Origin: a virus
DNA length: 46,444 nt
Direction: 5' to 3' (one strand)
IMG/VR virus record: IMGVR_UViG_3300044780_000040
The notes below the pieces were generated by a model that did not search any database, was not told where the DNA came from, and worked only from the letters and a program-made list of their open reading frames with translations. Within the stretch, counting starts at the first letter, position 1. The number at the start of each line of letters is the position of its first letter. This document shows positions 1 to 46,444 of this stretch, one piece after another. Position numbers and translations under genes: made by a program.

Positions 1-127
1 GATCATTTTACTCTACAATGGGAGCTACGAAACCCACTATGTCGCTCATGAACATCGAATCGCACAACTCATCCTCACTCCAATCTGGCCCTGCGCAATT
101 GGAGAACTTGACATCCTTCCGCCCCCG
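1..127. repeat. Terminal overlap: 1-127 is identical to 46318-46444, so the contig closes into a 46317-bp circle
   Basis: Direct comparison of both ends (gatcattttactctacaatggg...cttccgcccccg). A dUTPase ORF reads through the junction in frame. Confidence 0.95.
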
Positions 128-169
128 ATCGGGCGAGGAGATCGCGGCTTCGGCTCTACCGGACTCTGA
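2..169 (+). CDS. dut: dUTPase, 3' end (same gene as 45992..46444 read through the circular junction; 2-127 duplicates 46319-46444)
   Basis: The frame continues ...ILLYNGSYETHYVAHEHRIAQLILTPIWPCAIGELDILPPPIGRGDRGFGSTGL*. RGxxGFGSTG is dUTPase motif 5. TGA lies at 167-169. Confidence 0.85.
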   Translation: MILLYNGSYETHYVAHEHRIAQLILTPIWPCAIGELDILPPPIGRGDRGFGSTGL

Positions 170-929
170 CTTTCGACTCCCGAACATCAGAAAGATGTTC
201 ATTCCAGATCCGGGCAAAGTGATCGTTGACGCTGACCTTTCTGGCGCCGACGCCCAGGTCGTCGCTTGGGAGGCGAATGATGAAAAATTAAAGAAAGCAT
301 TCAGAGAGGGAAAGTCTGTCCACCTCATGAATGGAGAAGACCTTTTAGGAACAGAATTCACTCAAGCCGAAGGCCACCATAAATCCTTCGGAACACCAAA
401 AGGCAAAATGTATGAGGCCCTTAAAAGGTTCGTTCACGCTACCAACTACTTGGGAACTGCGCGGACCCTTCATCTTAACCCAAGCATCGGGTGGCCGCTC
501 AGCCTCTGCGAGCTTCGTCAAAAGCGATGGCTCGATGATCTCCATCCCGGAATCCGCGAATGGCATCGCCGGACCGAGCGTGAGATTTACAGCTCGCGGT
601 CTGTCAGAAATCAATTCGGTTATCGAATCGTATATTTCGACCGAATTGATTCCCTCCTTAGCCAAGCTGTCGCTTGGAGACCTCAGAGCACTGTCGCCGA
701 AGTATGTTTTAGAGGTGCGCTACAGCTTCGTGCGAACGTTCCCTGGGTCGAGCTTCTGCTGCAAGTACACGATTCGATTGTGTTCCAAATCCCAATCCAC
801 AGGTGGGGAGAAGCTAATACTCTCGATACCCTTAGACGCCATCTTGAGGTTCCTGTTCCCTACCCAGATCCCCTTGTGATTCAATGGGGAATAGCTGGTT
901 CGGACAAATCGTGGGGAGACTGCAAATAA
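18..929 (+). CDS. Family A DNA polymerase, C-terminal piece (fingers/palm, motifs A, B, C)
   Basis: RLPNIRKMFIPDPGKVIVDADLSGADAQVVA matches motif A (cf. Pol I IRxAF...DYSQIELR). KRFVHATNYLGT matches motif B and LLQVHDSIVF matches motif C. The frame is open from base 3 and the first ATG is at 18. Conserved sequence begins near 170 and another ATG is at 195, so the start is uncertain. Confidence 0.85.
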   Translation: MGATKPTMSLMNIESHNSSSLQSGPAQLENLTSFRPRSGEEIAASALPDSDFRLPNIRKMFIPDPGKVIVDADLSGADAQVVAWEANDEKLKKAFREGKSVHLMNGEDLLGTEFTQAEGHHKSFGTPKGKMYEALKRFVHATNYLGTARTLHLNPSIGWPLSLCELRQKRWLDDLHPGIREWHRRTEREIYSSRSVRNQFGYRIVYFDRIDSLLSQAVAWRPQSTVAEVCFRGALQLRANVPWVELLLQVHDSIVFQIPIHRWGEANTLDTLRRHLEVPVPYPDPLVIQWGIAGSDKSWGDCK

Positions 930-947: not shown

Positions 948-2207
948 ATGGCCCGACATTTCGCGAACTGGCTCAAAGCCTATATGAACTACACCAGAGA
1001 TTCAGAATCTCCCACCGGCTTTCACTTCTGGACCGGAGTTTCTGTCTTAGCTGGCGCTCTACGCCGCCGCGTCTGGATAGATATGAAGAAGTTTCAATGG
1101 ACCCCAAACTTCTATATCATTCTAGTCGGCCCGCCGGGCGTCGCCGCAAAATCTACCTCCATTTCGATGGGGACTGACCTTCTGGGTAAAGTGCCCGGAA
1201 TCCGTTTCGGGCCAGAAAGCATGACCTGGCAAAAACTAGCGAAAGGACTCGCAGATGCAATCGAATTCGTCGAATACACGAACCCGCTCGGGGGCAAAAG
1301 TAGAATCGCTATGTCCTGCCTTACTATCAACGTCAGTGAATTGGGCACCTTTATGCAAGCTGACAACGACCAACTCATGTCCTTTCTCATTCGTATGTGG
1401 GACGGCCAACGAGATAAATTCCGCCATGAGACGCTTACAGGCGGAACAGTTGAGATCGATAACCCTTGGCTTAATATTATCGGCGCAACTACTCCAAGTT
1501 GGCTTAAAGCTAACTTTCCCGAATCGATGGTCTCCGGAGGACTCACTTCCAGAATAGTCTTCGTATTCGGGAACAAAAAGCGCGGCCTGATCCCTTATCC
1601 GGATGAGGTAATTCCGGACGCCGAATATGACAAAATACAGAAAGAACTCATATCCGATCTTGCAGAGATCAGTAAGCTCGCTGGCCCTTATACGCTCAGT
1701 CCCTTCGCTCGCGAGTGGGGGCGCGCCTGGTACGTCGACCACAATAACCCTGACCTTCGACCCCCACATCTCGCCTCAGAGCGTTTTGAAGGTTATCTCG
1801 CACGGAAACAAACACACTTGCATAAGTTCGCCATTATCCTCGCGGCAGCTAAGCGTAACTCCCTTGTTATCGAAGAGGACGATCTTAAAGAATCAGACCA
1901 AATCATCTCCGACAACGAAAAAGACATGATCCAGGTCTTCGAATCTATTGGCGTCACGGACCAAAAGAATCACGTCAACGAAATCGTCTCAATTGTCCGA
2001 TTCAGCGGATTCATGACGTCAAAAGGTTTGTGGGCGCGAAGCATGAACCACATGACCCTCAAAGACTTCGAAGAAGCGGTCCGCGCTGCCATTCACGGCA
2101 GACTTCTCGAACTAACGACTATAAACGGTATCCAGGGGGTAGTAGTGCCGTCGGTCCATCCGGGTCAGAAGGGCCAGAGTCCCCCGAAGCCACAAGGATC
2201 GACATGA
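948..2207 (+). CDS. P-loop NTPase, DUF3987-like (candidate replicative helicase or primase-associated ATPase)
   Basis: 419-aa ORF with GGAG 8 nt upstream of the ATG. FHFWTGVSVLAGALRRRVWI...PNFYIILVGPPGVAAKSTS resembles the DUF3987 Walker A region, although the Walker A is deviant (GPPGVAAKS). No other helicase or primase was recognised in the genome. Confidence 0.5.
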   Translation: MARHFANWLKAYMNYTRDSESPTGFHFWTGVSVLAGALRRRVWIDMKKFQWTPNFYIILVGPPGVAAKSTSISMGTDLLGKVPGIRFGPESMTWQKLAKGLADAIEFVEYTNPLGGKSRIAMSCLTINVSELGTFMQADNDQLMSFLIRMWDGQRDKFRHETLTGGTVEIDNPWLNIIGATTPSWLKANFPESMVSGGLTSRIVFVFGNKKRGLIPYPDEVIPDAEYDKIQKELISDLAEISKLAGPYTLSPFAREWGRAWYVDHNNPDLRPPHLASERFEGYLARKQTHLHKFAIILAAAKRNSLVIEEDDLKESDQIISDNEKDMIQVFESIGVTDQKNHVNEIVSIVRFSGFMTSKGLWARSMNHMTLKDFEEAVRAAIHGRLLELTTINGIQGVVVPSVHPGQKGQSPPKPQGST

Positions 2208-2523: not shown

Positions 2524-2824
2524 CGAATCCGACGGCTGCCAACTCGAATCCTATATGTCTTACTGCAAGCTCTGCGGCACATGGCTCCATTGCTCTGAGA
2601 TCCAGAAAGGTGAACTCATTCGCCGCCCTATTGCCGACATCATTGAACCGGCTTCGCTCCCACCTGATTCGGTGCGAGACCCTCCGGATAATACTTCTGA
2701 AGATTTAGAGAAAGCGGAATATCGCTCTTCGCCAGAGGCAGCCCCGCCTCCTGCTTCGCCTTCACCTTCAGACGTTGTTGGACGGATTCTTTCAGTGCTT
2801 GGCTGGTCAAAGCCTTCATCCTAG
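2516..2824 (+). CDS. Hypothetical Cys-containing protein; its 3' half runs antisense to the end of the 1995-aa gene
   Basis: The ATG overlaps the previous stop (gATGGCTGA) and GGAGAG lies upstream. The N-terminus CQLESYMSYCKLCGTWLHC looks protein-like, while the C-terminal 60 aa are low complexity. Confidence 0.35.
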   Translation: MADESDGCQLESYMSYCKLCGTWLHCSEIQKGELIRRPIADIIEPASLPPDSVRDPPDNTSEDLEKAEYRSSPEAAPPPASPSPSDVVGRILSVLGWSKPSS

Positions 2825-5800
2825 CCTCGGGAGGCAACTCTTGATTGAAGCTCCGAATCGAACTCACAACCCGCGCCCGATCCTCGGGATTCTGACTCTT
2901 TACAGCATCTCCGAATTGTCTGAGCAAGATCCCCCGCCTCAGATCCCAATAGGTGCTGGCTTCTTGTTGGGCCTGAATGCTCTCCCATCGAGCGGTCAGA
3001 CGTCGTGGCTGATAACCTGCCGCGCGAGCGAGAATCTCTGCCATCTGCATTGTGTCGTGCGGGTCGAATCGCACAACCGTATTCCCGGCTTTGTTCACCT
3101 CCTCCCCGCGGGTCGCATAGCGGTATGCATGAGACATATTGCTCATAAACCGCGGCATAATTTGCTCCCATCGTTTCAACTCACTGAGATTCTGCGTGCT
3201 TGTGAGGAAATTGTACAAAGCGAAGAGATTCCCGAATCCTGCCCCGGCGGCTCTTTGCAACTGCTGGAATTCCGCCCCTTTCGGGTCTTTGACGGGTTGA
3301 AGAGGAGCAAATGGATCGAACCCCGTCACATCGCCCATGGAGATACTCTTGCTTCGATCCAGCGTTGGGAAGAATTTCGGAAGACCCACAAGACTCCCCA
3401 TCCCATTCATGACATGTGGAATCCCGAACCCATGAACACTCATCCCATGAAGCAACAGATCCGGACTAATATTTCCATGCGTGACATCTATCGCAAACTT
3501 GCGCGCTTCATCTTCGACATCCCAATCTTTTCCGAACAATTTCCACCCGAGCGCCTTGATGATCGAATTCACATTTTCAGTCCCCGGCAGTCCCATAAGA
3601 CCACCGAGCGCTCCCATGATTAACAGACTCCGGGCGCCCATCGCCTTATTATTCCACATATTGAATAGACTATTCTGTACGAACGACTTAAAAATGAACA
3701 AGGCACCTTTCCGTCCCCACATGAACTTCGGTCTCGAATAAGGAGCATAGACAAATTGAGTCTTTTCCACGGAGTCTTTAGCAGCGGTGAACGCGGCTGC
3801 CTCTTGGTGGCTCCAACCAGAATCTCTCAGGCGCTGGTATTGGAGCGGGTTGTCTCGAACAGTCTGCTGGACATATTTACCATTCGGGTCTCGCATCGCG
3901 AGGTCCCAAGCGGCTCTGAATGCGACACGCCGATTATACTGCTCGGTCATCTCGAACATCCAACTGGATGCCTCAGAGAACTTCTGCCAGAATTCCTCAC
4001 CTCTGTTTCCGAAGGCGCGGAGCAGATTTCGATCCTCGCTAACGGCTGCAAGTGTGTGAGCTTGCGTCTCACTGATAACGCCTTCTTTGACCGCCTCCGC
4101 CAGAGCCCGGAACTTCGAACCAGCGGGTCCGGGCGGCGCGTTCTTTGCGAGCTCCTGGATCGTTCCCTTCTTGTAGAAGTTGTTCAATTCGAGCCCCGCT
4201 CTGGAGATCGCAGCTACGCTTCTGAGATCCCCGAATTTACTTGCCAGATGCGGATAGGTCATAATTGGCGTCTGCGAAAGGTTTAATGTCGCTGAAGCCG
4301 GATTAAAACCGAGGAACCAATGGAACATCAATCCCCTCAGAGCCGCGAAATCCGGCTTCGGATCGACGAGCATATCGAGATGCTCAGTCATATAATTCGC
4401 GATCTTATCGCGCTTGACTGCGTCGTTCAGGTCAATAGATCCCTTCTTGACGTCCTTGATCTGATCCCTCAGAGCATCAACCCACTTGACCCGAGTGATG
4501 TGATTCGCGCCATGGAAGAAGAAGTGGGCGTACGCCCTTTGGAAATCGGTGCTATAGCCCGGAGTGACATCCTTCGCCTTGAACTGGTGACGGAAGCTTT
4601 GCGACGGCGCATAATCGAACCTGAGTTGATCGAGCATCCCTCTCTGTGTTCGACTCAACGACAATTTATCCGCGACCAAGTCGATGAAGCCCGGCGGCAT
4701 CCCCAAGAGTGGTGTCGCATCTTTTGGGACCTCTCCAGTTCTGACCCGATCGCCTGGGAGGAGGTCACTCGACTTCTCGAGTGCCGCCGCGATCTTCTTT
4801 TGCTGACGCAAAGAATCCGTCTGCTCGAAATGTCTCACATTTCCTGCATGATCGTAGACGGTTATCGTATACTTTCCAAAACGAGTGAGAGGAAAGAATG
4901 GCCTTTTCAACATATTGTCGATGCGTGTATTTGCGCTCTCGATCGCTTGAAGTTGAGCCACCGGATCTTTTATTCTGGCAGCGTCTTGCATCAAGAGATT
5001 ACGGTATTTCTCCAAGAAGCCATCAAAATCTGCTACGAGCCCCTCGAAGACCCTGAGACTTTGACCACTAAGTTTATGCTTCTCGGCGAGCTTTTGGAAC
5101 TCCGTTGCAGTCGGCCTTCGAATAATCCCATCATCAGTTAGCTTGAACATCCCATTCGCATAATCTTCGATGAACTTATTGAGACCGAAAAGCTGTTTGG
5201 GGTCTTTGACAAGTTTCCACTGCTTGAGGCGAGTATGAGCATCCCCCATAATGTTATTCTTCTCCAAATTCATAAGAGCGACAACTTCCTTATAGATTTG
5301 AAGGCCACGGATATGTTTATTCATATCAGCGATCTGCGGAAGACTAGTCATCCATTCCCAGAATCTATTCATCCGATCCGCGTGCGCCGCCATAGCATTG
5401 CCAGGCCCCTTAAGCTCTGGTGGAAGACTATCAATGATGTCCCTACCTCCGACAGTGAGCGCGGTGGGTGGTACAGAGCGCACCTCTGGGGTCCCATCCC
5501 TGTTCATGGCCTCAGCGTTGAGTCTCTTCCCATCCAATTCATGCTTGTCCTTGATGTCAGAAATGAACTCTGGAGTGTCTTTCATGAGCGAATCGAGCCA
5601 CTTCTGCATTACCGGGACCGCCTCCGCATTCCCCAACTTTCGACCGAGGAAGCGCTCGATTATATTTCGAATAGTCTGCCCCAATGACTTATAAAACTTA
5701 TCGACTCTCGACAATGGCTTATCCGACGTGGTCGCCCACTTTGCCACCTGTTCAGCGAACCATTCTTTGAAATGCAAAAGATATTCCCGAGATCCAGTCT

Positions 5801-8627
5801 GGAGATCCGAGAGCGGAATGTCGTTCTGCCTTTTCCCTCCCTCCCAATCTGGAAGATTCCGCGCCCCGGTCATTTCAGAGATCGCATTATCCCTCAATCT
5901 TCTCACGTCTCCGACCGTTTTTTGTGAAAGATTCACAGATTCCCGAAACTTCCTAAACTCATCAAAGATGAGCGTTCGAGTCGAATGGTCTAGATTCGCG
6001 AACTTATCCCAATAGATCAGATGTCCAATTTCATGCGCCGCGGTGGCATATAGATCTTCCGGAGTCCTGAGTCTATTGAGATTAATATTCACCACATATT
6101 CTCCATTGCGCAGTTCAGCTTTTCCGCGCCACCTCGCTTTATTCGGCTCCATCACAATATTCATCTTCCTGCTCAATTTGAGATCCTTAGCGATCTGAAC
6201 AGAAATCTTTGCGATCTTTTTCGCCGGCTCAATCAGCGCCTCAGGCGTCCCGATCGTCACAATATCATTGATGCGAACTTTTCCCTTTCCACTCGGCTCC
6301 GTTTCATAGAGTGGGAGGCCCATCCTGACTTTCGATCCAAAGGCTGGATTCAACTTCACGAAATAATTATCCTTCAATCTATTCGGATCGACTCCCATCT
6401 CTTGATGCAGACGCTCTCTCTGAACCCTGATCTGTGCCGGAATAGATGAATAATAATCCTCCGGCCGGACATCGAATCGAGTAGACTGGACATCCGCTCC
6501 GAGTTTATCTGCCCATTTCTTGAAAAGCCTCGAAACCTGTTTATCATAAAACTCCCTCGAACCCTGAAGCTGCTTCGCGGTCCCCAGCCGCAGACCGACC
6601 TGATCCCCTGTCGTCCAAGAGACACCATCATATCCCTCATCCGCCGCGAGTCTCAGAACCCGTTTAACCGCAAGCTCAGACCAATTCGACTTAAAGGGCA
6701 AATCCGGCGCCTTCCCCATCTGCTGGACAGCCTCATTGAATACATTCGAAGCATCCCTCCACCCTTGCCTCAACTCTTGAAGATAAGGATCTTCATGCGC
6801 CACGAGCCCTTGAGCTTCCACATACTGGCGCGCATTCTCATATTTGAACCTCGCCCGATCAACATTTCTTTGCGCATCTTCAACTGAGATCTCCGGTGCC
6901 TCTTTCGCACGATAGCCAGCTCTTCTCCCCATCTGGTGAATATCGCTCTGAATCTCCTCAACATGGAGCAACCTCTCACCATTCCGTCCCGTGCGGTCCG
7001 TTGCTCGAACGTGGGCTAAGACATTCGGATCTTGCCAATGGCTTCCAGTGAACACCGTCGGATCTTCTTGAAGGAAAAAGTTCCTCGCCTGTTTTCGCAT
7101 CCCTTCGCGTGAAAATTCTCCAGCCTGCTCCCACGGACCGAATTCTCTTGCATAATTATAATCCCAAGTGTCTTTCGCCCTCTCTTCAACTTTGAAGGGA
7201 TCGGGCTCATTCTTAATCGGAACCTTGAGCAAAAGCTCTCTATAATTCGAACGTTCGCCCGGAAGCACCTGATTTGCATATTCAGGATCGAAATCCAGCG
7301 GCGAAGTTCTCTCCTCCAGAATCAAACCATTCGACTCAATATGCGCAATCAAATCAGCTTTGTTGACCTTCCCCTCGACACTCGAAAGATATTGCGGAAG
7401 ATTTAGATCCAAAAGCTCCTCTTCCTTCACTCCGGGCGAGTTCTTTAACGTACCGATGACCTGCTCGACTGTTGCATTCTCTGGCACCTTTTCATGCACC
7501 GCCTTGAGCGTTGGAGAATAAAAAATCCGATCCTCTCTCGGATAAAGAACATCCTCCATCGCCGCCACTTCAGCGGGCGGAGTTTCTCCCAAACGAATAG
7601 CACCCGGTTCCGCACTCACATTCGGAACCTGGCTCTGAAAAGCCCTCTGAATCTCTTCCGGCGTCGCGGGCCTCGCACTCGGAAGCGCCTTCGCTCCAAT
7701 TCTTACAGAGCCCGCCGCAGCTTGATGTGCTCCCCACGCTCCCGCACCAACGCCGAGCCCGATAAAATAATCTTTCGCGAGATCTTCCCATCCAGGAACC
7801 TCGCCATGCGTGAGCGTCGTGACGGCGCCCTGCGCAGTTCCAAGACTCGGCAAAACAATTCCCATCTGTGTGAGTGCTTCGGCGACCGGATACTTCAATA
7901 ATTGAGCAACCTGCTCCGCTCCCTCTTGCTGCACCCGACCGAAAAGCGACGCCCCCGGAATAATTCCCATCGCCGTACCGAACGCCGTTGCAATCCCAGA
8001 ATCCACAATCGATCGAGTGAGCGCTTGATCTTCATTCAAACCTTTCGCTCTCGCCGCTTGATAACTTGGAACAATCGTGCCCAGCCCCGCTTCGCCTGCC
8101 ATCCCCGCGACAGCACCCGCTCCTCCGAACACCGAACCAGCGAGCATTGCCGCAGCCCCTGGCACCATTCCACCCATTCCGTGAGCAATATTCGCTCCGT
8201 ACCACTTCGGATCATTCCAGCCGTCAGTGATCTTTTCTCCCAGAAGCTTATTGATCTCATCTTGTGTTTCCGGATGTAGTAATTTTTCTTGATTCATTTC
8301 CTCCAATGTTTTTCCACCCCAATCCTTCGGTAAAATCGCCTGAGCGCCCCCAATATCTGCCAGAGTGCGATCGACGAGCCCCCTCTTGAAACTCGATACA
8401 ATCGCATCCCAGAAGCCGGGGGCCTCACTATTCGGTTTCGTAATTGGATCTTCAGTCGGACGGGGCTTTTCCACCGGAGCAGCAGGATTATCGAATGTCA
8501 GACCCTCCGGCAGCACCGCCTTCGGTGGCTCCGGCGTATCGAATGTCAATCCCTCTGGAAGCTCCGGATCAGTCTGCGGAGGCGTAAAGGTTAACCCTTC
8601 CGGCAACTCATTGGGCATTGGGAACAT
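2640..8627 (-). CDS. Giant polyvalent virion/ejection-type protein (1995 aa) with a zincin HExxH motif
   Basis: Uninterrupted ORF. It has a 3x LPEGLTF N-terminal repeat and a Gly/Ala-rich hydrophobic segment. HEIGH is encoded at 6021-6035 and FPLTRFGKY (PLxRFG-type signature) at 4875-4892. It is the last gene of the structural operon, after three low-complexity proteins. Confidence 0.7.
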   Translation of the reverse strand: MFPMPNELPEGLTFTPPQTDPELPEGLTFDTPEPPKAVLPEGLTFDNPAAPVEKPRPTEDPITKPNSEAPGFWDAIVSSFKRGLVDRTLADIGGAQAILPKDWGGKTLEEMNQEKLLHPETQDEINKLLGEKITDGWNDPKWYGANIAHGMGGMVPGAAAMLAGSVFGGAGAVAGMAGEAGLGTIVPSYQAARAKGLNEDQALTRSIVDSGIATAFGTAMGIIPGASLFGRVQQEGAEQVAQLLKYPVAEALTQMGIVLPSLGTAQGAVTTLTHGEVPGWEDLAKDYFIGLGVGAGAWGAHQAAAGSVRIGAKALPSARPATPEEIQRAFQSQVPNVSAEPGAIRLGETPPAEVAAMEDVLYPREDRIFYSPTLKAVHEKVPENATVEQVIGTLKNSPGVKEEELLDLNLPQYLSSVEGKVNKADLIAHIESNGLILEERTSPLDFDPEYANQVLPGERSNYRELLLKVPIKNEPDPFKVEERAKDTWDYNYAREFGPWEQAGEFSREGMRKQARNFFLQEDPTVFTGSHWQDPNVLAHVRATDRTGRNGERLLHVEEIQSDIHQMGRRAGYRAKEAPEISVEDAQRNVDRARFKYENARQYVEAQGLVAHEDPYLQELRQGWRDASNVFNEAVQQMGKAPDLPFKSNWSELAVKRVLRLAADEGYDGVSWTTGDQVGLRLGTAKQLQGSREFYDKQVSRLFKKWADKLGADVQSTRFDVRPEDYYSSIPAQIRVQRERLHQEMGVDPNRLKDNYFVKLNPAFGSKVRMGLPLYETEPSGKGKVRINDIVTIGTPEALIEPAKKIAKISVQIAKDLKLSRKMNIVMEPNKARWRGKAELRNGEYVVNINLNRLRTPEDLYATAAHEIGHLIYWDKFANLDHSTRTLIFDEFRKFRESVNLSQKTVGDVRRLRDNAISEMTGARNLPDWEGGKRQNDIPLSDLQTGSREYLLHFKEWFAEQVAKWATTSDKPLSRVDKFYKSLGQTIRNIIERFLGRKLGNAEAVPVMQKWLDSLMKDTPEFISDIKDKHELDGKRLNAEAMNRDGTPEVRSVPPTALTVGGRDIIDSLPPELKGPGNAMAAHADRMNRFWEWMTSLPQIADMNKHIRGLQIYKEVVALMNLEKNNIMGDAHTRLKQWKLVKDPKQLFGLNKFIEDYANGMFKLTDDGIIRRPTATEFQKLAEKHKLSGQSLRVFEGLVADFDGFLEKYRNLLMQDAARIKDPVAQLQAIESANTRIDNMLKRPFFPLTRFGKYTITVYDHAGNVRHFEQTDSLRQQKKIAAALEKSSDLLPGDRVRTGEVPKDATPLLGMPPGFIDLVADKLSLSRTQRGMLDQLRFDYAPSQSFRHQFKAKDVTPGYSTDFQRAYAHFFFHGANHITRVKWVDALRDQIKDVKKGSIDLNDAVKRDKIANYMTEHLDMLVDPKPDFAALRGLMFHWFLGFNPASATLNLSQTPIMTYPHLASKFGDLRSVAAISRAGLELNNFYKKGTIQELAKNAPPGPAGSKFRALAEAVKEGVISETQAHTLAAVSEDRNLLRAFGNRGEEFWQKFSEASSWMFEMTEQYNRRVAFRAAWDLAMRDPNGKYVQQTVRDNPLQYQRLRDSGWSHQEAAAFTAAKDSVEKTQFVYAPYSRPKFMWGRKGALFIFKSFVQNSLFNMWNNKAMGARSLLIMGALGGLMGLPGTENVNSIIKALGWKLFGKDWDVEDEARKFAIDVTHGNISPDLLLHGMSVHGFGIPHVMNGMGSLVGLPKFFPTLDRSKSISMGDVTGFDPFAPLQPVKDPKGAEFQQLQRAAGAGFGNLFALYNFLTSTQNLSELKRWEQIMPRFMSNMSHAYRYATRGEEVNKAGNTVVRFDPHDTMQMAEILARAAGYQPRRLTARWESIQAQQEASTYWDLRRGILLRQFGDAVKSQNPEDRARVVSSIRSFNQELPPEARMKALTSQALKESVQQRLKVKAKQEAGLPLAKSDIPLSLNLQKYYPEGLAPNQVGAKPVQ

Positions 8628-41388: not shown

Positions 41389-41679
41389 ATGTCGAATGAT
41401 CCACTTTTAGAACTAGAACTAGTGGAGATGAAAGTGTCAGCATTTCCGAGCGGCGTTGTAATCTTCTTCCGCATTATGACCCCCGACGCCCAATTGGCGA
41501 GGGGCGTCCATCTTGAAGGTCGCTCTGTACTCATTGGCGCCTCAGACTACCACCACAACGACTACGTTGTAGTCGACGAAAAAGGCGCCTTTCTGGCCTG
41601 CTACCCCCGCGAATTCGTCGCCGCCATAATGCCTCTAAAAACAGAGGGAGAGCCAGATGCATCTTATAAATCGCGCTGA
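41389..41679 (+). CDS. Hypothetical protein (96 aa)
   Basis: AAAGGA lies upstream of the ATG. Confidence 0.5.
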   Translation: MSNDPLLELELVEMKVSAFPSGVVIFFRIMTPDAQLARGVHLEGRSVLIGASDYHHNDYVVVDEKGAFLACYPREFVAAIMPLKTEGEPDASYKSR

Positions 41680-43027
41680 TCTCTTGATTGAAAAGCGCCA
41701 GCGAAAAGAGATCCCAAAACCCTCTCTTGAAGAACTAAAGGAATCCATTCTTGAAAACACTCTACTCCACGCCCCAGTGGTTCAAGAGAAGAACGGCAAA
41801 TACATTTTGGTTGTCGGCGAGCGCCGGACTCGCGCGCTCGACCTTATCGCTGCAGATGGCTTGGTCTTTGTATACAACAAAACCGACATCCTTCCCGGCA
41901 CAATCCCTGTCGTTTTGCTCGACGAGGCCATTTCTGACATCAAGCGTCAGGAAATCGAACTCGCAGAAAACACAGATCGTTTGGATATTCCGTGGCAAGA
42001 TCGTGTTGAGGCTCTTGCCTTTATCCATGAACAGAAAAAGAATCTTAATCCATATCAGTCCGTCGTTGAGACTGCGCGTGAGATTATTGAAGAAGAAGCG
42101 GCAGCCCTCGCCGGCCCGCAGGGCGGCCTCGCGCTTTCAACCGTCAGCAAGGCCGTTCGCCAAGCCGAGATCATCAATAAACACCTGGACAAGCCCGAGA
42201 TCCAAAAGGCCCGCAACGCCACTGAAGCCTTCAATCTCATCGTGGCGAATGAACAGCGCGCATTCGAAGCTGAATTGATCCGCCGAGGCCAAAAGAAAAT
42301 CATCACCATTGAGGTACGACATGGATCACTCCTCGACATCATGCCCCGACTCGACCCCGGGCAATTTGATACTATTCTGGCGGACCCCCCTTATGGAATC
42401 GACGTTGATAGCGCCGGTTTTCGATCCCGAACTGTCCATCACCACAACTATGCCGACACCCCAGACGCTGCAAGAAACCTCATCTCTTGCATCTTGTCCG
42501 AAGGATTTCGAGTTTGCAAATCAAGAGCAAACATATTCATATTCTGTGACATCGACCTTTTCGGATGGATCAAAGAAGCTTCAGCGCGTGCGGGGTGGGA
42601 CCCTTTTAGAACTCCGATCACTTGGCAGAAAAGTGATAGTGAAGGGATGGCTCCGTGGGGACGGGAGGGTTTTCGCCGCACCACTGAGTGGATCTTTTTC
42701 GCTCGAAAGGGGCAGAAAGGTCTTATACATTCTCCCATCGACCTTTTACGATATAATAGAGTCCCTCGAGATGAACGCGAATATGGACCTGAAAAACCGA
42801 CTGACCTTCTTAAAGCTCTGCTTTCTTGCTCCACTCTTCCTGGGGATTCTATTCTGGACCCTTGCTGCGGCAGCGGCTCTACTCTCATTGCTGCGCGCTC
42901 ACTGAATATGCGCGCCCTCGGCATAGAACCTGATGAGAAAGCGTACAACCTTGCTCTGGTAAAATCACAAACTCTAAGTCCGGAGCCTGCCTCTTCTCCC
43001 GCACAAAGTTCGCTGGAGGTTCTATGA
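41657..43027 (+). CDS. ParB-like N-terminal domain fused to a beta-class N6A/N4C DNA methyltransferase
   Basis: ILVVGERRTRAL carries the ParB GERR box. ILADPPYGI (motif IV) precedes DPCCGSGSTLIAA (motif I), the order found in beta-class enzymes such as CcrM/HinfI-type. Confidence 0.85.
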   Translation: MHLINRADLLIEKRQRKEIPKPSLEELKESILENTLLHAPVVQEKNGKYILVVGERRTRALDLIAADGLVFVYNKTDILPGTIPVVLLDEAISDIKRQEIELAENTDRLDIPWQDRVEALAFIHEQKKNLNPYQSVVETAREIIEEEAAALAGPQGGLALSTVSKAVRQAEIINKHLDKPEIQKARNATEAFNLIVANEQRAFEAELIRRGQKKIITIEVRHGSLLDIMPRLDPGQFDTILADPPYGIDVDSAGFRSRTVHHHNYADTPDAARNLISCILSEGFRVCKSRANIFIFCDIDLFGWIKEASARAGWDPFRTPITWQKSDSEGMAPWGREGFRRTTEWIFFARKGQKGLIHSPIDLLRYNRVPRDEREYGPEKPTDLLKALLSCSTLPGDSILDPCCGSGSTLIAARSLNMRALGIEPDEKAYNLALVKSQTLSPEPASSPAQSSLEVL

Positions 43028-44004: not shown

Positions 44005-44169
44005 ATGCAACTCGTAAAACCAAACGGTGACGTCACGGGCGTCAGGTTCGATGCACACGACGTTGTGAACCTCACAGGCACAGCTTGCAACTTCATGCTT
44101 GGTTACAGTCGAGCTCAAGTCCTCGCTTATTGTAAAGACCGAGGATGGAAAGTGTATTTAACATCATGA
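44005..44169 (+). CDS. Hypothetical small protein (54 aa; below the ORF-track cutoff)
   Basis: AGGAAG lies upstream. My translation is MQLVKPNGDVTGVRFDAHDVVNLTGTACNFMLGYSRAQVLAYCKDRGWKVYLTS. The stop overlaps the ATG at 44166 (ATGA). Confidence 0.45.
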   Translation: MQLVKPNGDVTGVRFDAHDVVNLTGTACNFMLGYSRAQVLAYCKDRGWKVYLTS

Positions 44170-45974
44170 ACGACTATCGCCCCACGACTCCCTCTGCAAT
44201 CGACGACTTATGGTACGGCACCTCAGGCCCTCGAGACGCCCGCATAGTCGTCGTCGCCGAGTCGTGGGGCGCGGCCGAAGCCGCAATGAAAAGACCCCTC
44301 GTCGGAGAATCAGGAAAAGAATTCAACCGAATGTTGAGTGAAGCTGGGCTTTCCCGCGAGTCCATCTTCTGCACGAACTGTTTCGCAGCCCAACCGCCAA
44401 GCAATGAAGTTTGGCGATTTTTCCATGCAAAAGATAGCGGGGAATCGAAATGTCGCGGTCTCCAACCGACTCAATGGGCGACACACGAGCTAGGTCGCTT
44501 ATACCGACAACTCGAAGAAATCCGACCGACCCTTGTCATTGCCGCTGGGAACTATGCCCTCTGGGCATTGACGGACGGCTTAGTATCATTCTCATCCGAG
44601 CCGACGGGGTCCGGTGCAACAGTCCTTGTACCTTCAGGGATCATGTCTTGGCGCGGCTCAATGCTGGAAGCCTCGGGGCTCGCGGCCTTGCCAAATATAA
44701 AAATCCTCCCAATCATCCACCCCGCGGCGATCCTTCGGGCGTGGTATCTGAGAGCGGTGACGATTCATGACCTTAGCTACAGAGTTCCACTTGCGCTTAA
44801 TTCTGACTGGCGCCCATATCCGGGTCCAGAGATCATTCATCGACCATCATTTGCCGACGCCGAAAGAGTGCTGGGAAATTGGATCATACACGCAGCCGCT
44901 GGTTCTCTGCTCCGTCTGTCGAACGACATTGAAACATATCGTGGACTTATCACCTGCCTCTCGTTCGCGGATGGCCCATACGACACTGGATCGACAGCTC
45001 TCGTCATCCCGCTTGTGCGCCCCTCTGGTTCAGGCGGTGCTTTCGAAAATTATTGGACCCCAGAACAAGAACTCCGAATAACTAAGCTTCTCCGAATTTT
45101 ATGGACATATCCGAATGTGCGAATCGAAGGCCAAAACTACAACTACGACACCCAATACATCGAACGAGACTACGGAGTCCGACCCAATCTCGATTTCGAT
45201 ACCATGCTCGCTCATCATCTACTTTGGCCGGGAACCCCAAAAGGGCTCGACTACCTTTCTTCCCTGTACAATAAGTATTACTGGTATTGGAAGGACGACA
45301 ATAAAGAATGGGACAGCAAAGTCGGTGGGTGGGACAGCCATCTCCGGTATAACGCTGAGGACTCCCTTCGGACTTTTGAGTGCGCCACCAGCCTCCGTGC
45401 CCAAATCTCTACTCAGAACTTTGAAGAACTATGGGCCTGGGAAAAAGCCAAAAATGAGATGGCTCTCGAAATGATGCGAAGGGGAATCCTAATCGATCGT
45501 TCTAAACGCGCCGAAATGGGCTTCCATTTGGCATTTGAGAAGGAGAAGATCAATGTCTGGCTGAAAAAAATCATCCCGCAAGAATTCTTAACCCTATCTG
45601 AATTTTCCCCCAAAACTTCAAAAAAATTTTGGTGGGAATCGGGGAAACAACAGAAGGATTTGTTTTACCGGATTCTCGGCTTCCCGCGGAAATTGAGCCG
45701 AAAAACCGGAAACGAAACCCTCGATGCAGAAGCTATCGAACGCTTAAAGAAAGATGTCCCTTGGGCGGCCCGCCTTTGGTCTGCAATAGAGACCCAGCGG
45801 TCAATTGGCGTCTTTCACAACACGTTCATTAGCGCGGAACTCGAGCCCAATGGTCGTATGAAGTGCAGCTTCAATACGGCGGGGACGGAAACATTCCGCT
45901 GGTCCTCTTCCGCAAACGCCTTTTGGCGAGGGACCAATTTGCAGAACATCCCGAAAGGAGAAGAACCAGACTAG
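44166..45974 (+). CDS. Family A DNA polymerase, N-terminal piece: UDG-family-4-like domain, 3'-5' exonuclease, thumb and first fingers element
   Basis: UDG-like: VVVAESWGAAEA...PLVGESGKEF...CTNCFAAQPP...IIHPAAILR. Exo I NDIET, Exo II NYNYD, Exo III YNAED. It ends ...TFRWSSSANAFWRGTNLQNIPKGEEPD*. The track start is 44145, but the ATG at 44166 is coupled to the upstream stop. Confidence 0.85.
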   Translation: MNDYRPTTPSAIDDLWYGTSGPRDARIVVVAESWGAAEAAMKRPLVGESGKEFNRMLSEAGLSRESIFCTNCFAAQPPSNEVWRFFHAKDSGESKCRGLQPTQWATHELGRLYRQLEEIRPTLVIAAGNYALWALTDGLVSFSSEPTGSGATVLVPSGIMSWRGSMLEASGLAALPNIKILPIIHPAAILRAWYLRAVTIHDLSYRVPLALNSDWRPYPGPEIIHRPSFADAERVLGNWIIHAAAGSLLRLSNDIETYRGLITCLSFADGPYDTGSTALVIPLVRPSGSGGAFENYWTPEQELRITKLLRILWTYPNVRIEGQNYNYDTQYIERDYGVRPNLDFDTMLAHHLLWPGTPKGLDYLSSLYNKYYWYWKDDNKEWDSKVGGWDSHLRYNAEDSLRTFECATSLRAQISTQNFEELWAWEKAKNEMALEMMRRGILIDRSKRAEMGFHLAFEKEKINVWLKKIIPQEFLTLSEFSPKTSKKFWWESGKQQKDLFYRILGFPRKLSRKTGNETLDAEAIERLKKDVPWAARLWSAIETQRSIGVFHNTFISAELEPNGRMKCSFNTAGTETFRWSSSANAFWRGTNLQNIPKGEEPD

Positions 45975-45991
45975 AATCAAAGGAGGCGTCC

Positions 45992-46444
45992 TTGACATTC
46001 AGCGACAAAGTTCGAGAAAAACTCGGCCCCACGCCCGAATTACGCGTGTTTAAAAAAGACTCTCGGGCAAGACTACCGATAAGAGCGACAGAAAGCTCTG
46101 TTGGACTCGACGTTTTTGCCTTTCTGCTAACTGAATCCGGAAGGCCAACGACTCGAGCGATTCACCAAAAGAGCGTCACACCAGTCCCAACTGGACTGGT
46201 AATCCAACCTCCCAGCGGGTACTACATTCAATGCATGAGTCGATCCGGCCTTGCAAAGAATGGTGTATTCGTCGCCAACGCTCCCGGAATAGTTGATCCA
46301 GACTATTCAGGGGAGCTGATCATTTTACTCTACAATGGGAGCTACGAAACCCACTATGTCGCTCATGAACATCGAATCGCACAACTCATCCTCACTCCAA
46401 TCTGGCCCTGCGCAATTGGAGAACTTGACATCCTTCCGCCCCCG
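45992..46444 (+). CDS. dut: dUTPase (runs off the window end; continues at 128-169 through the circular junction; 164 aa in total)
   Basis: AGGAGG lies 5 nt upstream of the TTG at 45992. Motifs seen: GLDVFA, SRSGLA, GIVDPDYSGELIILL and (after wrap) RGDRGFGSTG. The gene is not in the ORF track because there is no stop inside the window. Confidence 0.85.
   Translation, partial: MTFSDKVREKLGPTPELRVFKKDSRARLPIRATESSVGLDVFAFLLTESGRPTTRAIHQKSVTPVPTGLVIQPPSGYYIQCMSRSGLAKNGVFVANAPGIVDPDYSGELIILLYNGSYETHYVAHEHRIAQLILTPIWPCAIGELDILPPP
46318..46444. repeat. Second copy of the 127-bp terminal overlap
   Basis: Identical to 1-127. Confidence 0.95.

What the first reader, a model, noticed from the sequence alone, without database searches (positions are those of the whole stretch)
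44166..46444. Family A DNA polymerase split between NLQNIP and motif A, with a complete dUTPase gene in the gap
The ORF at 44166-45974 ends ...GTNLQNIPKGEEPD*. The next polymerase sequence (...RLPNIRKMFIPDPGKVIVDADLSGADAQVVA, then motifs B and C) is in a different frame at 18-929 after the circular junction. In E. coli Pol I these elements are contiguous (NLQNIP-x9-IRQAF...DYSQIELR). The 0.5-kb gap holds a full dUTPase gene with its own AGGAGG and TTG start. I see no intein-like or homing-endonuclease-like features. The enzyme would have to assemble from two polypeptides, with the fingers broken at a catalytically important place. Its expression would also be tied to a uracil-excluding enzyme.
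Basis: partly seen in the sequence, partly recalled or inferred. Interest (0 to 1): 0.75.

Follow-up and report, generated by a model that had tools for sequence, protein, structure and literature searches.

The report
Split phage DNA polymerase, dUTPase inside
This complete phage genome encodes its replicative DNA polymerase as two separate genes, broken in a variable loop just before the catalytic motif A, with an intact dUTPase gene in the break; the same break, holding different cargo genes, occurs in over a hundred related protein clusters from uncultured phages and in one cultured Vibrio phage, so it is an inherited two-piece enzyme and not an assembly error.

Summary
The window is a circular 46,317-bp phage contig with a 127-nt terminal overlap. 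polA is cut into an N piece (44166-45974: UDG-like domain, 3'-5' exonuclease, polymerase up to NLQNIPKGEEPD*) and a C piece (ORF 18-929; homology from 171: motifs A, B, C). Pfam DNA_pol_A positions 27-133 and 140-352 abut. The gap holds a five-motif dUTPase (TTG 45992, stop 167-169). Two details were wrong. Both pieces are in the same frame, separated by 8 stops. The break lies in a variable palm loop (Taq 586-593), not the fingers.

The split is not an artefact. The best 120 database clusters for each half are all stand-alone pieces. 54 of 68 distinct related loci are split at the same spot. Gaps run from 112 nt (no ORF) to 2.8 kb and hold dUTPase, HNH endonucleases, a ribonucleotide reductase and others. 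No intron or intein signal was found, and the C piece has dN/dS of 0.0-0.17.

Best reading: a "genes-in-pieces" two-subunit polymerase, probably seeded by homing endonucleases. This is a new variant of a known kind; PolB gp43A/B, NrdA of Aeh1 and PolA exo/pol fissions are known. The C piece's start codon in this window is unresolved.

The parts
44166..45974 (+). polA N piece, 602 aa (alternative start ATG 44145 gives 609 aa). It carries a family-4 UDG-like domain, a 3'-5' exonuclease, the thumb and the first palm segment, and ends NLQNIPKGEEPD then TAG.
   Evidence: Pfam gives UDG 56.5 bits, DNA_pol_A_exo1 29.4 bits and DNA_pol_A positions 27-133. ATG 44166 overlaps the stop of the upstream ORF (ATGA) and gives the 602-aa length called for relatives. 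The best 120 database relatives are all stand-alone proteins, nearly all of 535-626 aa and a few shorter, none of polymerase full length.
44247..44738 (+). UDG-like domain core. Motif AESWG stands in place of GE[AG]PG (44247-44270) and HPAAILR is at 44712-44738.
   Evidence: Aligned to the Thermus thermophilus family-4 UDG 1UI0, E 4e-10. Coordinates.
44916..45365 (+). 3'-5' exonuclease motifs: Exo I DIE (44916-44939), Exo II NYNYD (45129-45158), Exo III YNAED (45342-45365).
   Evidence: Pfam PF01612. Motifs read from the translation.
45936..45974 (+). NLQNIP (45936-45953), acidic tail KGEEPD (45954-45971) and stop TAG (45972-45974). This is the 5' edge of the break.
   Evidence: The same type of tail, x-G-[DETN]-E-x-[DE]*, occurs in 42 split loci.
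45981..45994 (+). Ribosome-binding site AGGAGG (45981-45986), a 5-nt spacer and the TTG start (45992-45994) of the dUTPase.
   Evidence: This is the strongest SD duplex among the 17 starts tested (-11.6 kcal/mol).
45992..46444 (+). dUTPase gene, first part. It continues across the circular junction; bases 46318-46444 are the same DNA as 1-127.
   Evidence: PF00692, 61.2 bits, profile 3-129/129. phrog_135 dUTPase, 6e-32. All five motifs are present.
1..169 (+). dUTPase gene, last part (1-127 duplicate the window end). It encodes motif IV RIAQL and motif V RGDRGFGSTGL, with stop TGA at 167-169.
1..127 (.). Terminal direct repeat of the contig (identical to 46318-46444). It marks a circular or circularly permuted assembly; the real unit is 46,317 bp.
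18..929 (+). polA C piece, longest ORF. Polymerase homology begins at F171/L177 (LPNIRK 177-194). The true start is unresolved: candidates are ATG 39, ATG 48 (best conserved among relatives), ATG 18, TTG 99 and TTG 108. ATG 195, the gene-caller's choice, would drop the conserved LPNIRK.
   Evidence: Pfam DNA_pol_A, 49 bits, positions 140-352. Across relatives the LPNIRK codons differ almost only by synonymous changes.
219..266 (+). Motif A strand VIVDADLSGADAQVVA. The catalytic Asp is at 234-236 (equivalent to Taq D610).
   Evidence: Klentaq alignment. Coordinates.
423..455 (+). Motif B / O-helix KRFVHATNYLG. His stands at the position of Taq K663 and Tyr at the position of F667.
753..788 (+). 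Motif C LLLQVHDSIVFQ. The catalytic Asp is equivalent to Taq D785.
948..2207 (+). DUF3987-type primase gene immediately downstream. It is the conserved syntenic neighbour of polA in both split and contiguous relatives.
   Evidence: phrog_14296 DNA primase, 1.5e-75. Synteny shown.

Best explanation
This is a "genes-in-pieces" family A replicative polymerase.

**What is shown.**
- The phage's UDG-exo-PolA gene is cut in the variable palm loop between NLQNIP and the motif A strand.
- The same cut is inherited across a large clade.
- Both halves and the dUTPase are under purifying selection.
- Neither an intron nor an intein is detectable.

**What is inferred.**
- *Assembly.* The two products are translated separately and assemble non-covalently into one enzyme, completing the palm across the subunit interface. 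The N piece (about 68 kDa) carries the UDG-like domain, the proofreading exonuclease, the thumb and the first part of the palm. The C piece (about 29-34 kDa) carries the motif A strand, the fingers with motif B, and motif C.
- *The gap gene.* The dUTPase is an ordinary, independently translated cistron (AGGAGG-N5-TTG) in the same operon. It lowers dUTP during replication and is cargo, not part of a splicing device.
- *Origin.* The break was most likely created, and spread, by homing-endonuclease gene insertion at the conserved NLQNIP-coding DNA. The gap then became a landing site for accessory genes.
- *C-piece start in this window.* Translation most likely starts at an ATG lying in the +1 frame inside the dUTPase gene (ATG 39 or 48). 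That gives a 131- or 122-nt out-of-frame overlap and a dispensable Ser/Pro-rich leader.
For: **Anatomy.** Pfam DNA_pol_A positions 27-133 and 140-352 abut. The joined halves align colinearly with Klentaq, with the break at Taq 586-593. Contiguous relatives have a 7-17-residue variable linker at exactly this place.

**The split is real and inherited.**
- The best 120 clusters for the C piece (55-100% identity) are 242-321 aa, apart from one 172-aa fragment. The best 120 for the N piece (48-94% identity) are nearly all 535-626 aa. None is full length.
- Of 68 distinct loci, 54 are split and 12 are contiguous.
- One relative occurs in at least 24 contigs.
- An independent contig is 99% identical over the junction.

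**Separate translation.** L207 has a 112-nt gap with no ORF and GGCGGAGG-N5-GTG in front of the C piece. 86 of 120 called C pieces start upstream of LPN[IV]RK, mostly within 3-23 codons.

**Selection.** The C piece has omega of 0.0-0.17 and the dUTPase 0.11-0.21. The catalytic Asp of motifs A and C and the Exo I-III motifs are present.

**No splicing device.** Rfam found nothing in the window or in 11 split loci. The gap is filled by the ORF, with an 18-nt and a 7-nt flank. Pfam shows no Hint/intein domain. Eight stops lie in the polymerase frame.

**Operon.** No promoter-like or terminator-like site lies between the genes. The GC content of the dUTPase equals that of the genome.

**Mobile origin.**
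- HNH endonuclease genes sit in the same gap in L008 (1e-22) and L020 (2e-50).
- The L008 cassette is flanked by a 19-nt duplication of the dUTPase end.
- The split/contiguous state changes at least 3 times in all 100 bootstrap trees.

**C-piece start.** All 16 relatives with an abutting dUTPase(-like) ORF and no nearby start carry an ATG in the polymerase frame within the dUTPase H-Y-V-A-H-E-H codons. Only 2 of 7 others do.
Against: - No biochemical or proteomic evidence exists for assembly or activity of this enzyme. It is inferred by analogy with phage 25 gp43A/B and Aeh1 NrdA (PMC2988022).
- In this window no candidate start of the C piece has a Shine-Dalgarno sequence at normal spacing, unlike neighbouring genes. 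The position where relatives have ATG/TTG 8 codons before LPN is TCG here, even though GAGGAG lies 9 nt upstream.
- The start-codon association rests on related, non-independent lineages.
- The test of openness of the overlapping frame did not discriminate.
- dS is saturated in most pairs.
- The neighbour-joining tree is deep and crude, so one ancient split followed by re-fusions is not excluded.
- The structure prediction of the joined halves failed (pLDDT 33), so the interface was not modelled.
Confidence: 0.8

Rival explanations
1. Recoding fusion. Ribosomes translating the dUTPase shift +1 at its last codons (CUC UGA C here, CUU UAG G/A in most relatives) and continue into LPNIRK. The product would be a dUTPase-PolC fusion that is the real second subunit.
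For: The polymerase frame is +1 relative to the dUTPase frame in all 17 window-type relatives compared. The dUTPase stop lies 1-3 codons before LPNIRK. 10 of 15 abutting dUTPases end GGA CTT TAG, which resembles the prfB CUU-U slip site. The window has no canonical start for the C piece. Sister lineages keep a catalytically crippled dUTPase-like ORF under purifying selection.
Against: The conserved CTT TAG is fully explained by the overlapping D-F-R codons of the C piece, which are conserved even where no dUTPase abuts. The window has CUC, which cannot re-pair after a +1 slip. No Shine-Dalgarno stimulator lies at the prfB spacing. Most of the clade has ordinary starts for the C piece, and one member has an ORF-free gap. 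In the motif V-less type the dUTPase-like ORF ends after LPNIRK, so there is no stop-stimulated site.
Confidence: 0.07
2. RNA splicing. The 0.5-kb gap is a group I or group II intron that carries the dUTPase ORF, and a contiguous polA mRNA is restored.
For: Phage PolA genes are classic intron hosts, for example SPO1 and Bastille (references in PMC2988022). The authors of the OM43 phage paper raised this idea for their split DNAP (PMC10580990). The N tail and C head would join into a natural-length linker.
Against: Rfam found no intron family in the window or in 11 split loci. Only 18 nt and 7 nt of the gap lie outside the dUTPase ORF, which leaves no room for a ribozyme core. Gaps of 112 and 181 nt exist. 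Most relatives have an SD plus start codon for the C piece.
Confidence: 0.03
3. A decaying or non-functional polymerase gene. polA was broken by an insertion and the phage relies on a host or other polymerase.
For: The gene is interrupted, and the window's C piece lacks a clear ribosome-binding site.
Against: Both halves are kept intact and full length in more than 100 clusters down to about 50% identity. The C piece has omega of 0.0-0.17. Catalytic residues are retained. No other polymerase gene was found among the large ORFs scanned.
Confidence: 0.03
4. Protein trans-splicing. Split-intein halves on the two pieces ligate them, as in the "fractured genes" of Dassa et al. 2009.
For: The locus layout (gene part, intervening gene, gene part) is that of fractured genes (PMC2677866). 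The pre-LPN leader of the C piece contains ...ESHN|SSS, which superficially resembles the HN|S end of a C-intein.
Against: The N piece ends 6 residues after NLQNIP, so there is no N-intein. No Hint domain was found in Pfam. Leaders differ in length and sequence among relatives and are often only 3-8 residues.
Confidence: 0.01
5. Assembly or sequencing artefact: a chimeric join or an indel at the contig ends.
For: The feature spans the ends of the contig.
Against: The 127-nt overlap closes the circle cleanly inside the dUTPase ORF. An independent contig covers the dUTPase 3' end and the start of the C piece continuously at 99% identity. Many relatives carry the whole arrangement in the middle of 40-49-kb contigs.
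Confidence: 0.01

Closest known systems
Split PolB DNA polymerase gp43A/gp43B of Aeromonas phages 25 and 44RR (Petrov, Ratnayaka and Karam 2010, as reviewed in PMC2988022)
   Same: The catalytic subunit of a replicative phage polymerase is encoded by two adjacent co-oriented genes. The genes are separated either by a bare intercistronic spacer (44RR; compare L207 here) or by a homing-endonuclease gene (phage 25; compare L008 and L020 here). The pieces co-purify and are active.
   Different: That enzyme belongs to family B, not family A, so the break position is not comparable. No metabolic gene such as a dUTPase occupies the gap. No wide spectrum of cargo has been reported at one site.
"Genes-in-pieces" NrdA of Aeromonas phage Aeh1, split by the HNH gene mobE (Friedrich et al. 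2007; PMC3045599)
   Same: An essential enzyme is split inside a conserved catalytic region by a free-standing HNH endonuclease gene, and function is retained through non-covalent assembly.
   Different: It is a different enzyme. In the window the endonuclease is absent and a dUTPase occupies the gap. Here the split is ancient and widespread, not confined to one phage.
PolA exo/pol gene fission: LUZ24-like phages (DNA polymerase part I/II, PMC3890496) and T7-like cyanophages S-SBP1/S-TIP37 (PMC10201439, PMC12695635)
   Same: Family A phage polymerases are encoded as two genes. In LUZ24-like phages about 2 kb with roughly ten small ORFs lies between the parts.
   Different: Those breaks fall at the domain boundary between the exonuclease and the polymerase. 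Here the break lies inside the polymerase domain, between NLQNIP and motif A, so the palm itself is built from two chains.
UDG-PolA fusions (N4-like cluster 17, SPO1 and other unclassified members; Czernecki et al. 2023, PMC10201439)
   Same: A family-4 UDG-like domain is fused to the N terminus of an exo+pol family A polymerase. The contiguous relatives (Microcystis phage Mel-JY34, 810 aa) have this architecture.
   Different: The described UDG-PolAs are single polypeptides. That paper reports only the exo/pol fission as a split. Whether this clade belongs to one of its 19 clusters was not tested.
OM43 phages MEP401/MEP402 (PMC10580990)
   Same: [quoted passage not shown]
   Different: The position of that split and any relationship to this clade were not examined here. 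No dUTPase is reported in that gap.
"Fractured genes" with split inteins and free-standing homing endonucleases (Dassa et al. 2009, PMC2677866)
   Same: The gene order is the same. Their model has the invading element supplying the stop of the upstream piece and the initiator of the downstream piece, with overlapping coding. That fits the C-piece start lying inside the gap gene here.
   Different: No intein halves are present, so the pieces cannot be ligated.

Membership tests
Family A DNA polymerase (Pfam PF00476) | Sequence match to the DNA_pol_A profile across the polymerase domain | tested here: met
   The C piece scores 49 bits (cut-off 34.3) over positions 140-352. The N piece scores 24.8 bits over positions 27-133, below the cut-off on its own as expected for a fragment. 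Joined, the halves align with Klentaq 495-824, E 1e-10.
Family A DNA polymerase (Pfam PF00476) | Catalytic carboxylates of motif A (Taq D610) and motif C (Taq D785), and motif B on the O-helix | tested here: met
   DADLSGAD (D at 234-236) and QVHDS are present. Motif B is present but has His at the K663 position and Tyr at the F667 position. The His is shared by the five clade sequences aligned, four of which also have Tyr.
Family A DNA polymerase (Pfam PF00476) | Single polypeptide that carries the whole polymerase domain | tested here: not met
   A stop follows NLQNIPKGEEPD, and 8 stops lie in frame before the C piece.
Trimeric dUTPase (Pfam PF00692) | Profile match and the five conserved motifs, including the motif III Asp and motif V RGxxGFGSTG | tested here: met
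   61.2 bits (cut-off 22), profile 3-129/129. Motifs GLDV, SRSG, GIVDPDYSGE, RIAQL and RGDRGFGSTG are present. End-to-end alignment with solved dUTPases, E 3.5e-19. Enzyme activity was not tested.
Family-4 uracil-DNA glycosylase (Pfam PF03167) | Domain match plus catalytic motif A GE[AG]PG and motif B HP[SA] | tested here: inconclusive
   The domain match is 56.5 bits (cut-off 24.3). Aligned to 1UI0, motif A reads AESWG (Glu kept, Gly and Pro lost) and HPA is kept. No N-terminal Cys pair is visible in the sequence. Activity cannot be judged.
Group I / group II intron | Ribozyme core detectable by covariance models, with room for it outside the ORF | tested here: not met
   Rfam gave 0 hits at gathering score in the window and in 11 split loci. 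Only 18 nt and 7 nt of the gap are non-coding. The more permissive E-value mode was not run.
Intein / split intein ("fractured gene") | Hint-domain halves at the C terminus of the N piece and the N terminus of the C piece | tested here: not met
   Pfam gave no Hint or intein family at E<=0.01. The N piece ends 6 residues after NLQNIP. Leaders of the C piece vary in length and are mostly 3-23 residues in relatives.
Genes-in-pieces created by a free-standing homing endonuclease | A homing-endonuclease gene in the gap | tested here: not met
   In the window the only gap ORF is the dUTPase. In relatives the same gap holds HNH endonuclease genes: L008 phrog_99 at 1e-22 and L020 phrog_374 at 2e-50. 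The window therefore works like a genes-in-pieces locus, but it no longer carries, or never carried, the endonuclease.
Genes-in-pieces created by a free-standing homing endonuclease | Two pieces that reassemble into an active enzyme | not testable with these tools
   The only support is indirect: conservation and purifying selection. The single-chain AlphaFold run without an alignment failed.
Genes-in-pieces created by a free-standing homing endonuclease | Same insertion point in phylogenetically separate lineages (homing signature) | tested here: met
   In 42 loci the N pieces stop 4-7 residues after NLQNIP. At least 3 changes of state occur in all 100 bootstrap NJ trees. Caveat: the trees are deep and crude.

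The most novel reading that the evidence does not exclude
The NLQNIP/motif A loop of this polymerase clade may be a long-lived "cargo bay" inside an essential gene, seeded by homing endonucleases. In the window's lineage the resident dUTPase may have become integrated with the polymerase itself. Two observations point that way. First, the C piece appears to be translated from an ATG embedded in the +1 frame of the dUTPase gene, or made as a frameshift fusion. Second, sister lineages keep a dUTPase-like protein that has lost the motif III Asp and all of motif V yet still evolves under purifying selection. Together these suggest that the dUTPase(-like) protein is a structural or assembly subunit of the two-piece polymerase, analogous to the element-derived interaction domains that assemble the split NrdA of phage Aeh1.
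Probability: 0.12. Interest if true: 0.8.

Novelty: new variant of a known kind. Interest (0 to 1): 0.55.

Why it matters
- **Enzymology.** A replicative family A polymerase tolerates, over long evolutionary time, a chain break inside the palm directly before the catalytic motif A strand. That is a natural design for split or conditionally assembled PolA enzymes. It also raises a testable structural question: how is the active site completed across two chains?
- **Genome biology.** One loop-coding site in an essential gene acts as a recurrent insertion point. Its cargo ranges from nothing to a dUTPase, HNH endonucleases, a ribonucleotide reductase, an HTH regulator and a phosphatase-like ORF. 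This makes it a clear system for studying how homing endonucleases create "safe harbours" for accessory genes.
- **Annotation.** Sources name the N pieces "uracil-DNA glycosylase", and gene callers truncate the C pieces at MFIPDPGK. Surveys that use polA as a viral marker gene may miscount or misclassify this clade.

Tried and rejected
- **Intron.** Rfam at gathering score on the window and on 11 split loci gave nothing. Rejected.
- **tRNA or tmRNA in the window.** None found.
- **Intein.** No Hint domain. The HN|SSS string in the overlapping leader is not conserved. Rejected.
- **Read-through of one stop.** Rejected, because 8 stops lie in frame.
- **Openness of the polymerase frame inside the dUTPase, as evidence for overlapping translation.** Dropped. 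The frame is open for a median of 54 codons when abutting and 18 otherwise, but non-abutting dUTPases within the clade are also open (16-146 codons).
- **HNH/AP2 assignment of gap ORFs.** I first made it from memory and Pfam did not support it. PHROGs confirmed HNH. The AP2 part remains unconfirmed.
- **AlphaFold2 on the joined N+C sequence without an alignment.** pLDDT 33, unusable.
- **Mixed alignment of the joined sequence with N and C homologues as AlphaFold input.** MAFFT misplaced the N pieces (20-27% apparent identity), so I abandoned it.
- **dUTPase search with a single protein in IMG/VR.** Only 3 loci. Repeated with an alignment.
- **Literature.** No paper in the held library describes a PolA split at NLQNIP/motif A or a dUTPase inside polA. 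The library is incomplete, so this is absence of evidence only.

Full report
**1. What is in the window**

The window is a circularly closed phage contig. Bases 1-127 repeat 46318-46444, so the unit is 46,317 bp. It encodes a large terminase, a portal/adaptor, a major head protein and tail-fibre proteins. It also encodes a 1,995-aa DarB-like protein and a replication module. That module holds an exonuclease, a Sak4-like annealing protein, a ParB-methyltransferase, polA and a DUF3987-type primase.

The finding's ORF 44166-45974 (alternative start 44145) ends ...GTNLQNIPKGEEPD then TAG. Pfam finds three domains in it: a family-4 UDG-like domain, a 3'-5' exonuclease and DNA_pol_A profile positions 27-133.

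Eighteen bases after the stop, AGGAGG-N5-TTG (45981-45994) opens a 164-codon ORF that crosses the contig junction and stops at TGA 167-169. This ORF is a complete trimeric-type dUTPase. It scores 61.2 bits on PF00692 over profile positions 3-129 of 129, has all five motifs, and aligns end to end with solved dUTPases.

The ORF 18-929 matches DNA_pol_A positions 140-352. It carries LPNIRK (177-194), motif A (219-266), motif B (423-455) and motif C (753-788).
- The two polymerase pieces are in the same frame, with eight stops between them.
- The break is not in the fingers. Joined, the two halves align colinearly with Klentaq, and the break maps to the palm loop V586-R593 that precedes the motif A strand.

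**2. Real or artefact**

An independent JGI contig (L238) is 99% identical across the dUTPase 3' end and the beginning of the C piece.

I searched the 5.8-billion-protein collection with each half.
- For the C piece, the best 120 clusters (55-100% identity) are 242-321 aa, apart from one 172-aa fragment.
- For the N piece, the best 120 clusters (48-94% identity) are nearly all 535-626 aa, with a few shorter.
- No full-length polymerase appears in either list.

One relative's C piece is recorded in 53 blocks of the collection, and at least 24 contigs carrying it were read.

I scored 68 distinct related loci from IMG/VR, JGI metagenomes and GenBank phages. Of these, 42 are split with both edges visible, 12 more are split, 12 are contiguous and 2 are undetermined. 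The N pieces always stop 4-7 residues after NLQNIP, with an acidic tail of the form x-G-[DETN]-E-x-[DE].

[quoted passage not shown] MDCQLPNIKK). Its gap gene is an unrelated 184-aa protein of unknown function. Microcystis phage Mel-JY34 and a Manatee Spring genome carry contiguous 810-aa and 779-aa versions. In those a 10-17-residue variable linker sits at this exact place.

**3. What fills the gap elsewhere**

Gap length ranges from 112 nt to 2,775 nt.
- L207 has no ORF at all, only a spacer with GGCGGAGG-N5-GTG in front of the C piece.
- The window, L005 and several others hold a dUTPase only.
- L008 holds a small ORF, a dUTPase and an HNH endonuclease.
- L020 holds an HTH_3 regulator and an HNH endonuclease.
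- L010 holds a ribonucleotide reductase (Ribonuc_red_lgC, 1.7e-106) and further ORFs.
- L012 and L013 hold a dUTPase and a weak Trans_reg_C protein.
- L195 holds an ORF with an HCxxGxxR phosphatase-like signature, which I read from the sequence.

The HNH cassette of L008 is bracketed by a 19-nt direct repeat, which is the last 19 nt of the dUTPase gene. The ten closest relatives of the window's dUTPase in IMG/VR (39% identity or more) all lie inside a split polA. More distant ones lie elsewhere.

**4. Splicing and recoding alternatives**

Rfam finds no intron, or any other family, in the window or in 11 split loci. The gap has only 18 nt and 7 nt outside the dUTPase ORF. Pfam shows no Hint domain, and the N piece ends six residues after NLQNIP, so inteins are excluded. 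Eight in-frame stops exclude read-through.

Both halves are under purifying selection. The C piece has omega of 0.0-0.17, although dS is mostly saturated. The Exo I-III motifs and the motif A and C carboxylates are intact.

No promoter-like or terminator-like site separates the three genes, and the GC content of the dUTPase equals that of the genome.

The best-supported model is therefore a two-subunit polymerase with an independently translated dUTPase in the same operon.

**5. The unresolved step: where the C piece starts in this window**

Most of the clade has an ATG, GTG or TTG upstream of LPN[IV]RK, mostly within 3-23 codons and often with an SD.

In the window and its closest relatives the dUTPase stop lies 1-3 codons before LPNIRK. 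Gene callers then pick the downstream ATG 195 (MFIPDPGK). However, across these relatives the LPNIRK codons differ almost only by synonymous changes (CTC/CTT/CTA, CCG/CCA/CCC, AAC/AAT, AGA/CGC/CGG). These codons are therefore translated.

None of the in-frame candidates (ATG 18, 39, 48; TTG 99, 108) has an SD at normal spacing. The codon that is ATG or TTG eight codons before LPN in several relatives is TCG here. That start is created by the G-Y/F-G codons of motif V.

One pattern stands out. There are 16 relatives in which the dUTPase(-like) ORF abuts polC and no nearby start exists. All 16 carry an ATG in the polymerase frame inside the dUTPase H-Y-V-A-H-E-H codons, often with GGAGG or GGGAG 13 nt upstream. 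Only 2 of 7 other relatives do. The Fisher test gives 6e-4, but the lineages are not independent.

In the window these codons are ATG 39 and ATG 48. I take them as the likeliest starts. They imply a 131- or 122-nt out-of-frame overlap with the dUTPase and a Ser/Pro-rich leader of 46 or 43 residues. This fits the model of Dassa et al. (PMC2677866), in which the inserted element supplies the initiator of the downstream piece.

A +1 frameshift fusion remains possible but is less likely. The window ends CUC UGA C, and 10 of 15 relatives end CUU UAG. The conserved CTT TAG is explained by the overlapping D-F-R codons of the C piece.

**6. Origin**

In neighbour-joining trees of 59 dereplicated C pieces, the split/contiguous state needs at least three changes in all 100 bootstrap replicates. 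Three features together are the signature expected of homing-endonuclease-mediated insertion:
- the identical break position in separate lineages;
- HNH genes in some gaps;
- the target-site-like duplication in L008.

Later loss or replacement of the endonuclease and accretion of cargo would follow. A single ancient split with re-fusions is not excluded by these crude trees.

**7. Comparison with what is known**

Split phage enzymes of this kind are established (PMC2988022):
- PolB gp43A/43B of Aeromonas phages 25 and 44RR;
- NrdA of Aeh1, split by mobE;
- T4 topoisomerase.

Family A splits have been described only at the exonuclease/polymerase domain boundary. Examples are LUZ24-like part I/II (PMC3890496) and T7-like cyanophages. 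[quoted passage not shown]

OM43 phages have a DNAP split by a small ORF at a position I did not examine (PMC10580990). UDG-PolA fusions are known as single chains (PMC10201439).

I found no description of a split between NLQNIP and motif A, nor of a dUTPase inside polA. The library is incomplete, and the Vibrio phage record already shows the two genes without comment.

**8. Verdict**

This is a new variant of a known kind. It is well supported as real and widespread, and of moderate interest.

Noticed in passing
L006/L007/L070, L068, L069, L077, L160, L161, L167, L177 (gap ORFs; e.g. L006:3556-4059): In a sister lineage the gap ORF is a dUTPase derivative. It has lost the motif III Asp (PAMLAAEVD and similar) and all of motif V, and it runs 49 nt into the C piece in another frame. 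It stays open and shows omega of 0.05-0.33 in all but one pair (0.52). A catalytically dead dUTPase appears to be retained as a protein, with no explanation so far.
   Followed up: partly
L008:3533-3551 and 3975-3993: A 442-bp HNH endonuclease cassette sits directly after the dUTPase. It is flanked by a 19-nt direct repeat (TGGATCAACAGG[G/T]CTCTAA) equal to the dUTPase 3' end. The HNH ORF therefore ends in the captured dUTPase tail ...GGSTGL*, and it also supplies GGAAGGAG-N7-GTG for the C piece.
   Followed up: yes
window 423-455 (motif B): The O-helix lysine that is conserved in Pol I enzymes (Taq K663) is a histidine in the window and in Mel-JY34, the Manatee Spring genome, Kuura and the Vibrio phage (FVHATNY / FVHGTNY). 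The residue at Taq F667 is Tyr in all but the Vibrio phage, as in T7-type enzymes.
   Followed up: no
window 44247-44270: The N-terminal UDG-like domain reads AESWG where family-4 UDGs and the contiguous relative Mel-JY34 have GE[AG]PG. HPA is kept. Whether this domain can still excise uracil is unclear. It is relevant because a dUTPase sits in the same operon.
   Followed up: partly
window 159-176: Relative to close relatives (GGA CTT TAG G..) the window carries a 6-nt tandem duplication (GACTCT GACTTT). This moves the dUTPase stop two codons upstream and gives the C piece D-S-D-F-R instead of D-F-R.
   Followed up: no
L207:676-789; L208:522-704: These are minimal versions of the split. L207 has a 112-nt gap with no ORF. 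L208 has a 181-nt gap holding only a short ORF of about 55 codons. Each has its own SD and GTG for the C piece. They are comparable to the untranslated intercistronic spacer that splits gp43 in Aeromonas phage 44RR.
   Followed up: partly
L010:1253-3001: In one relative the same polA gap is 2.8 kb. It contains a 582-aa ribonucleotide reductase (Ribonuc_red_lgC, 1.7e-106) and several small ORFs.
   Followed up: partly
window 2640-8627 (- strand): A 1,995-aa ORF matches DarB-like antirestriction and giant virion-protein PHROGs (phrog_10089, 2.8e-45) and has a weak endolysin-like stretch. A homologous giant ORF follows the primase in relatives.
   Followed up: no
window 41657-43027: A ParB_N-like domain is fused to an N6/N4 DNA methyltransferase, a few small ORFs upstream of polA. 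It is syntenic in both split and contiguous relatives.
   Followed up: no
database names of P0121-P0240 and P0001-P0120: Public sources name the N pieces "uracil-DNA glycosylase". They truncate about 30% of C pieces at MFIPDPGK, probably because gene callers limit same-strand overlaps. This is a systematic mis-annotation of the clade.
   Followed up: partly
L004 (Caulobacter phage Kuura) 3007-6411: A more distant relative is interrupted at a different place. Two small ORFs lie between an upstream 369-aa gene that matches the N part and a 560-aa DNA polymerase gene. This suggests a second, independent way of breaking this polymerase.
   Followed up: no
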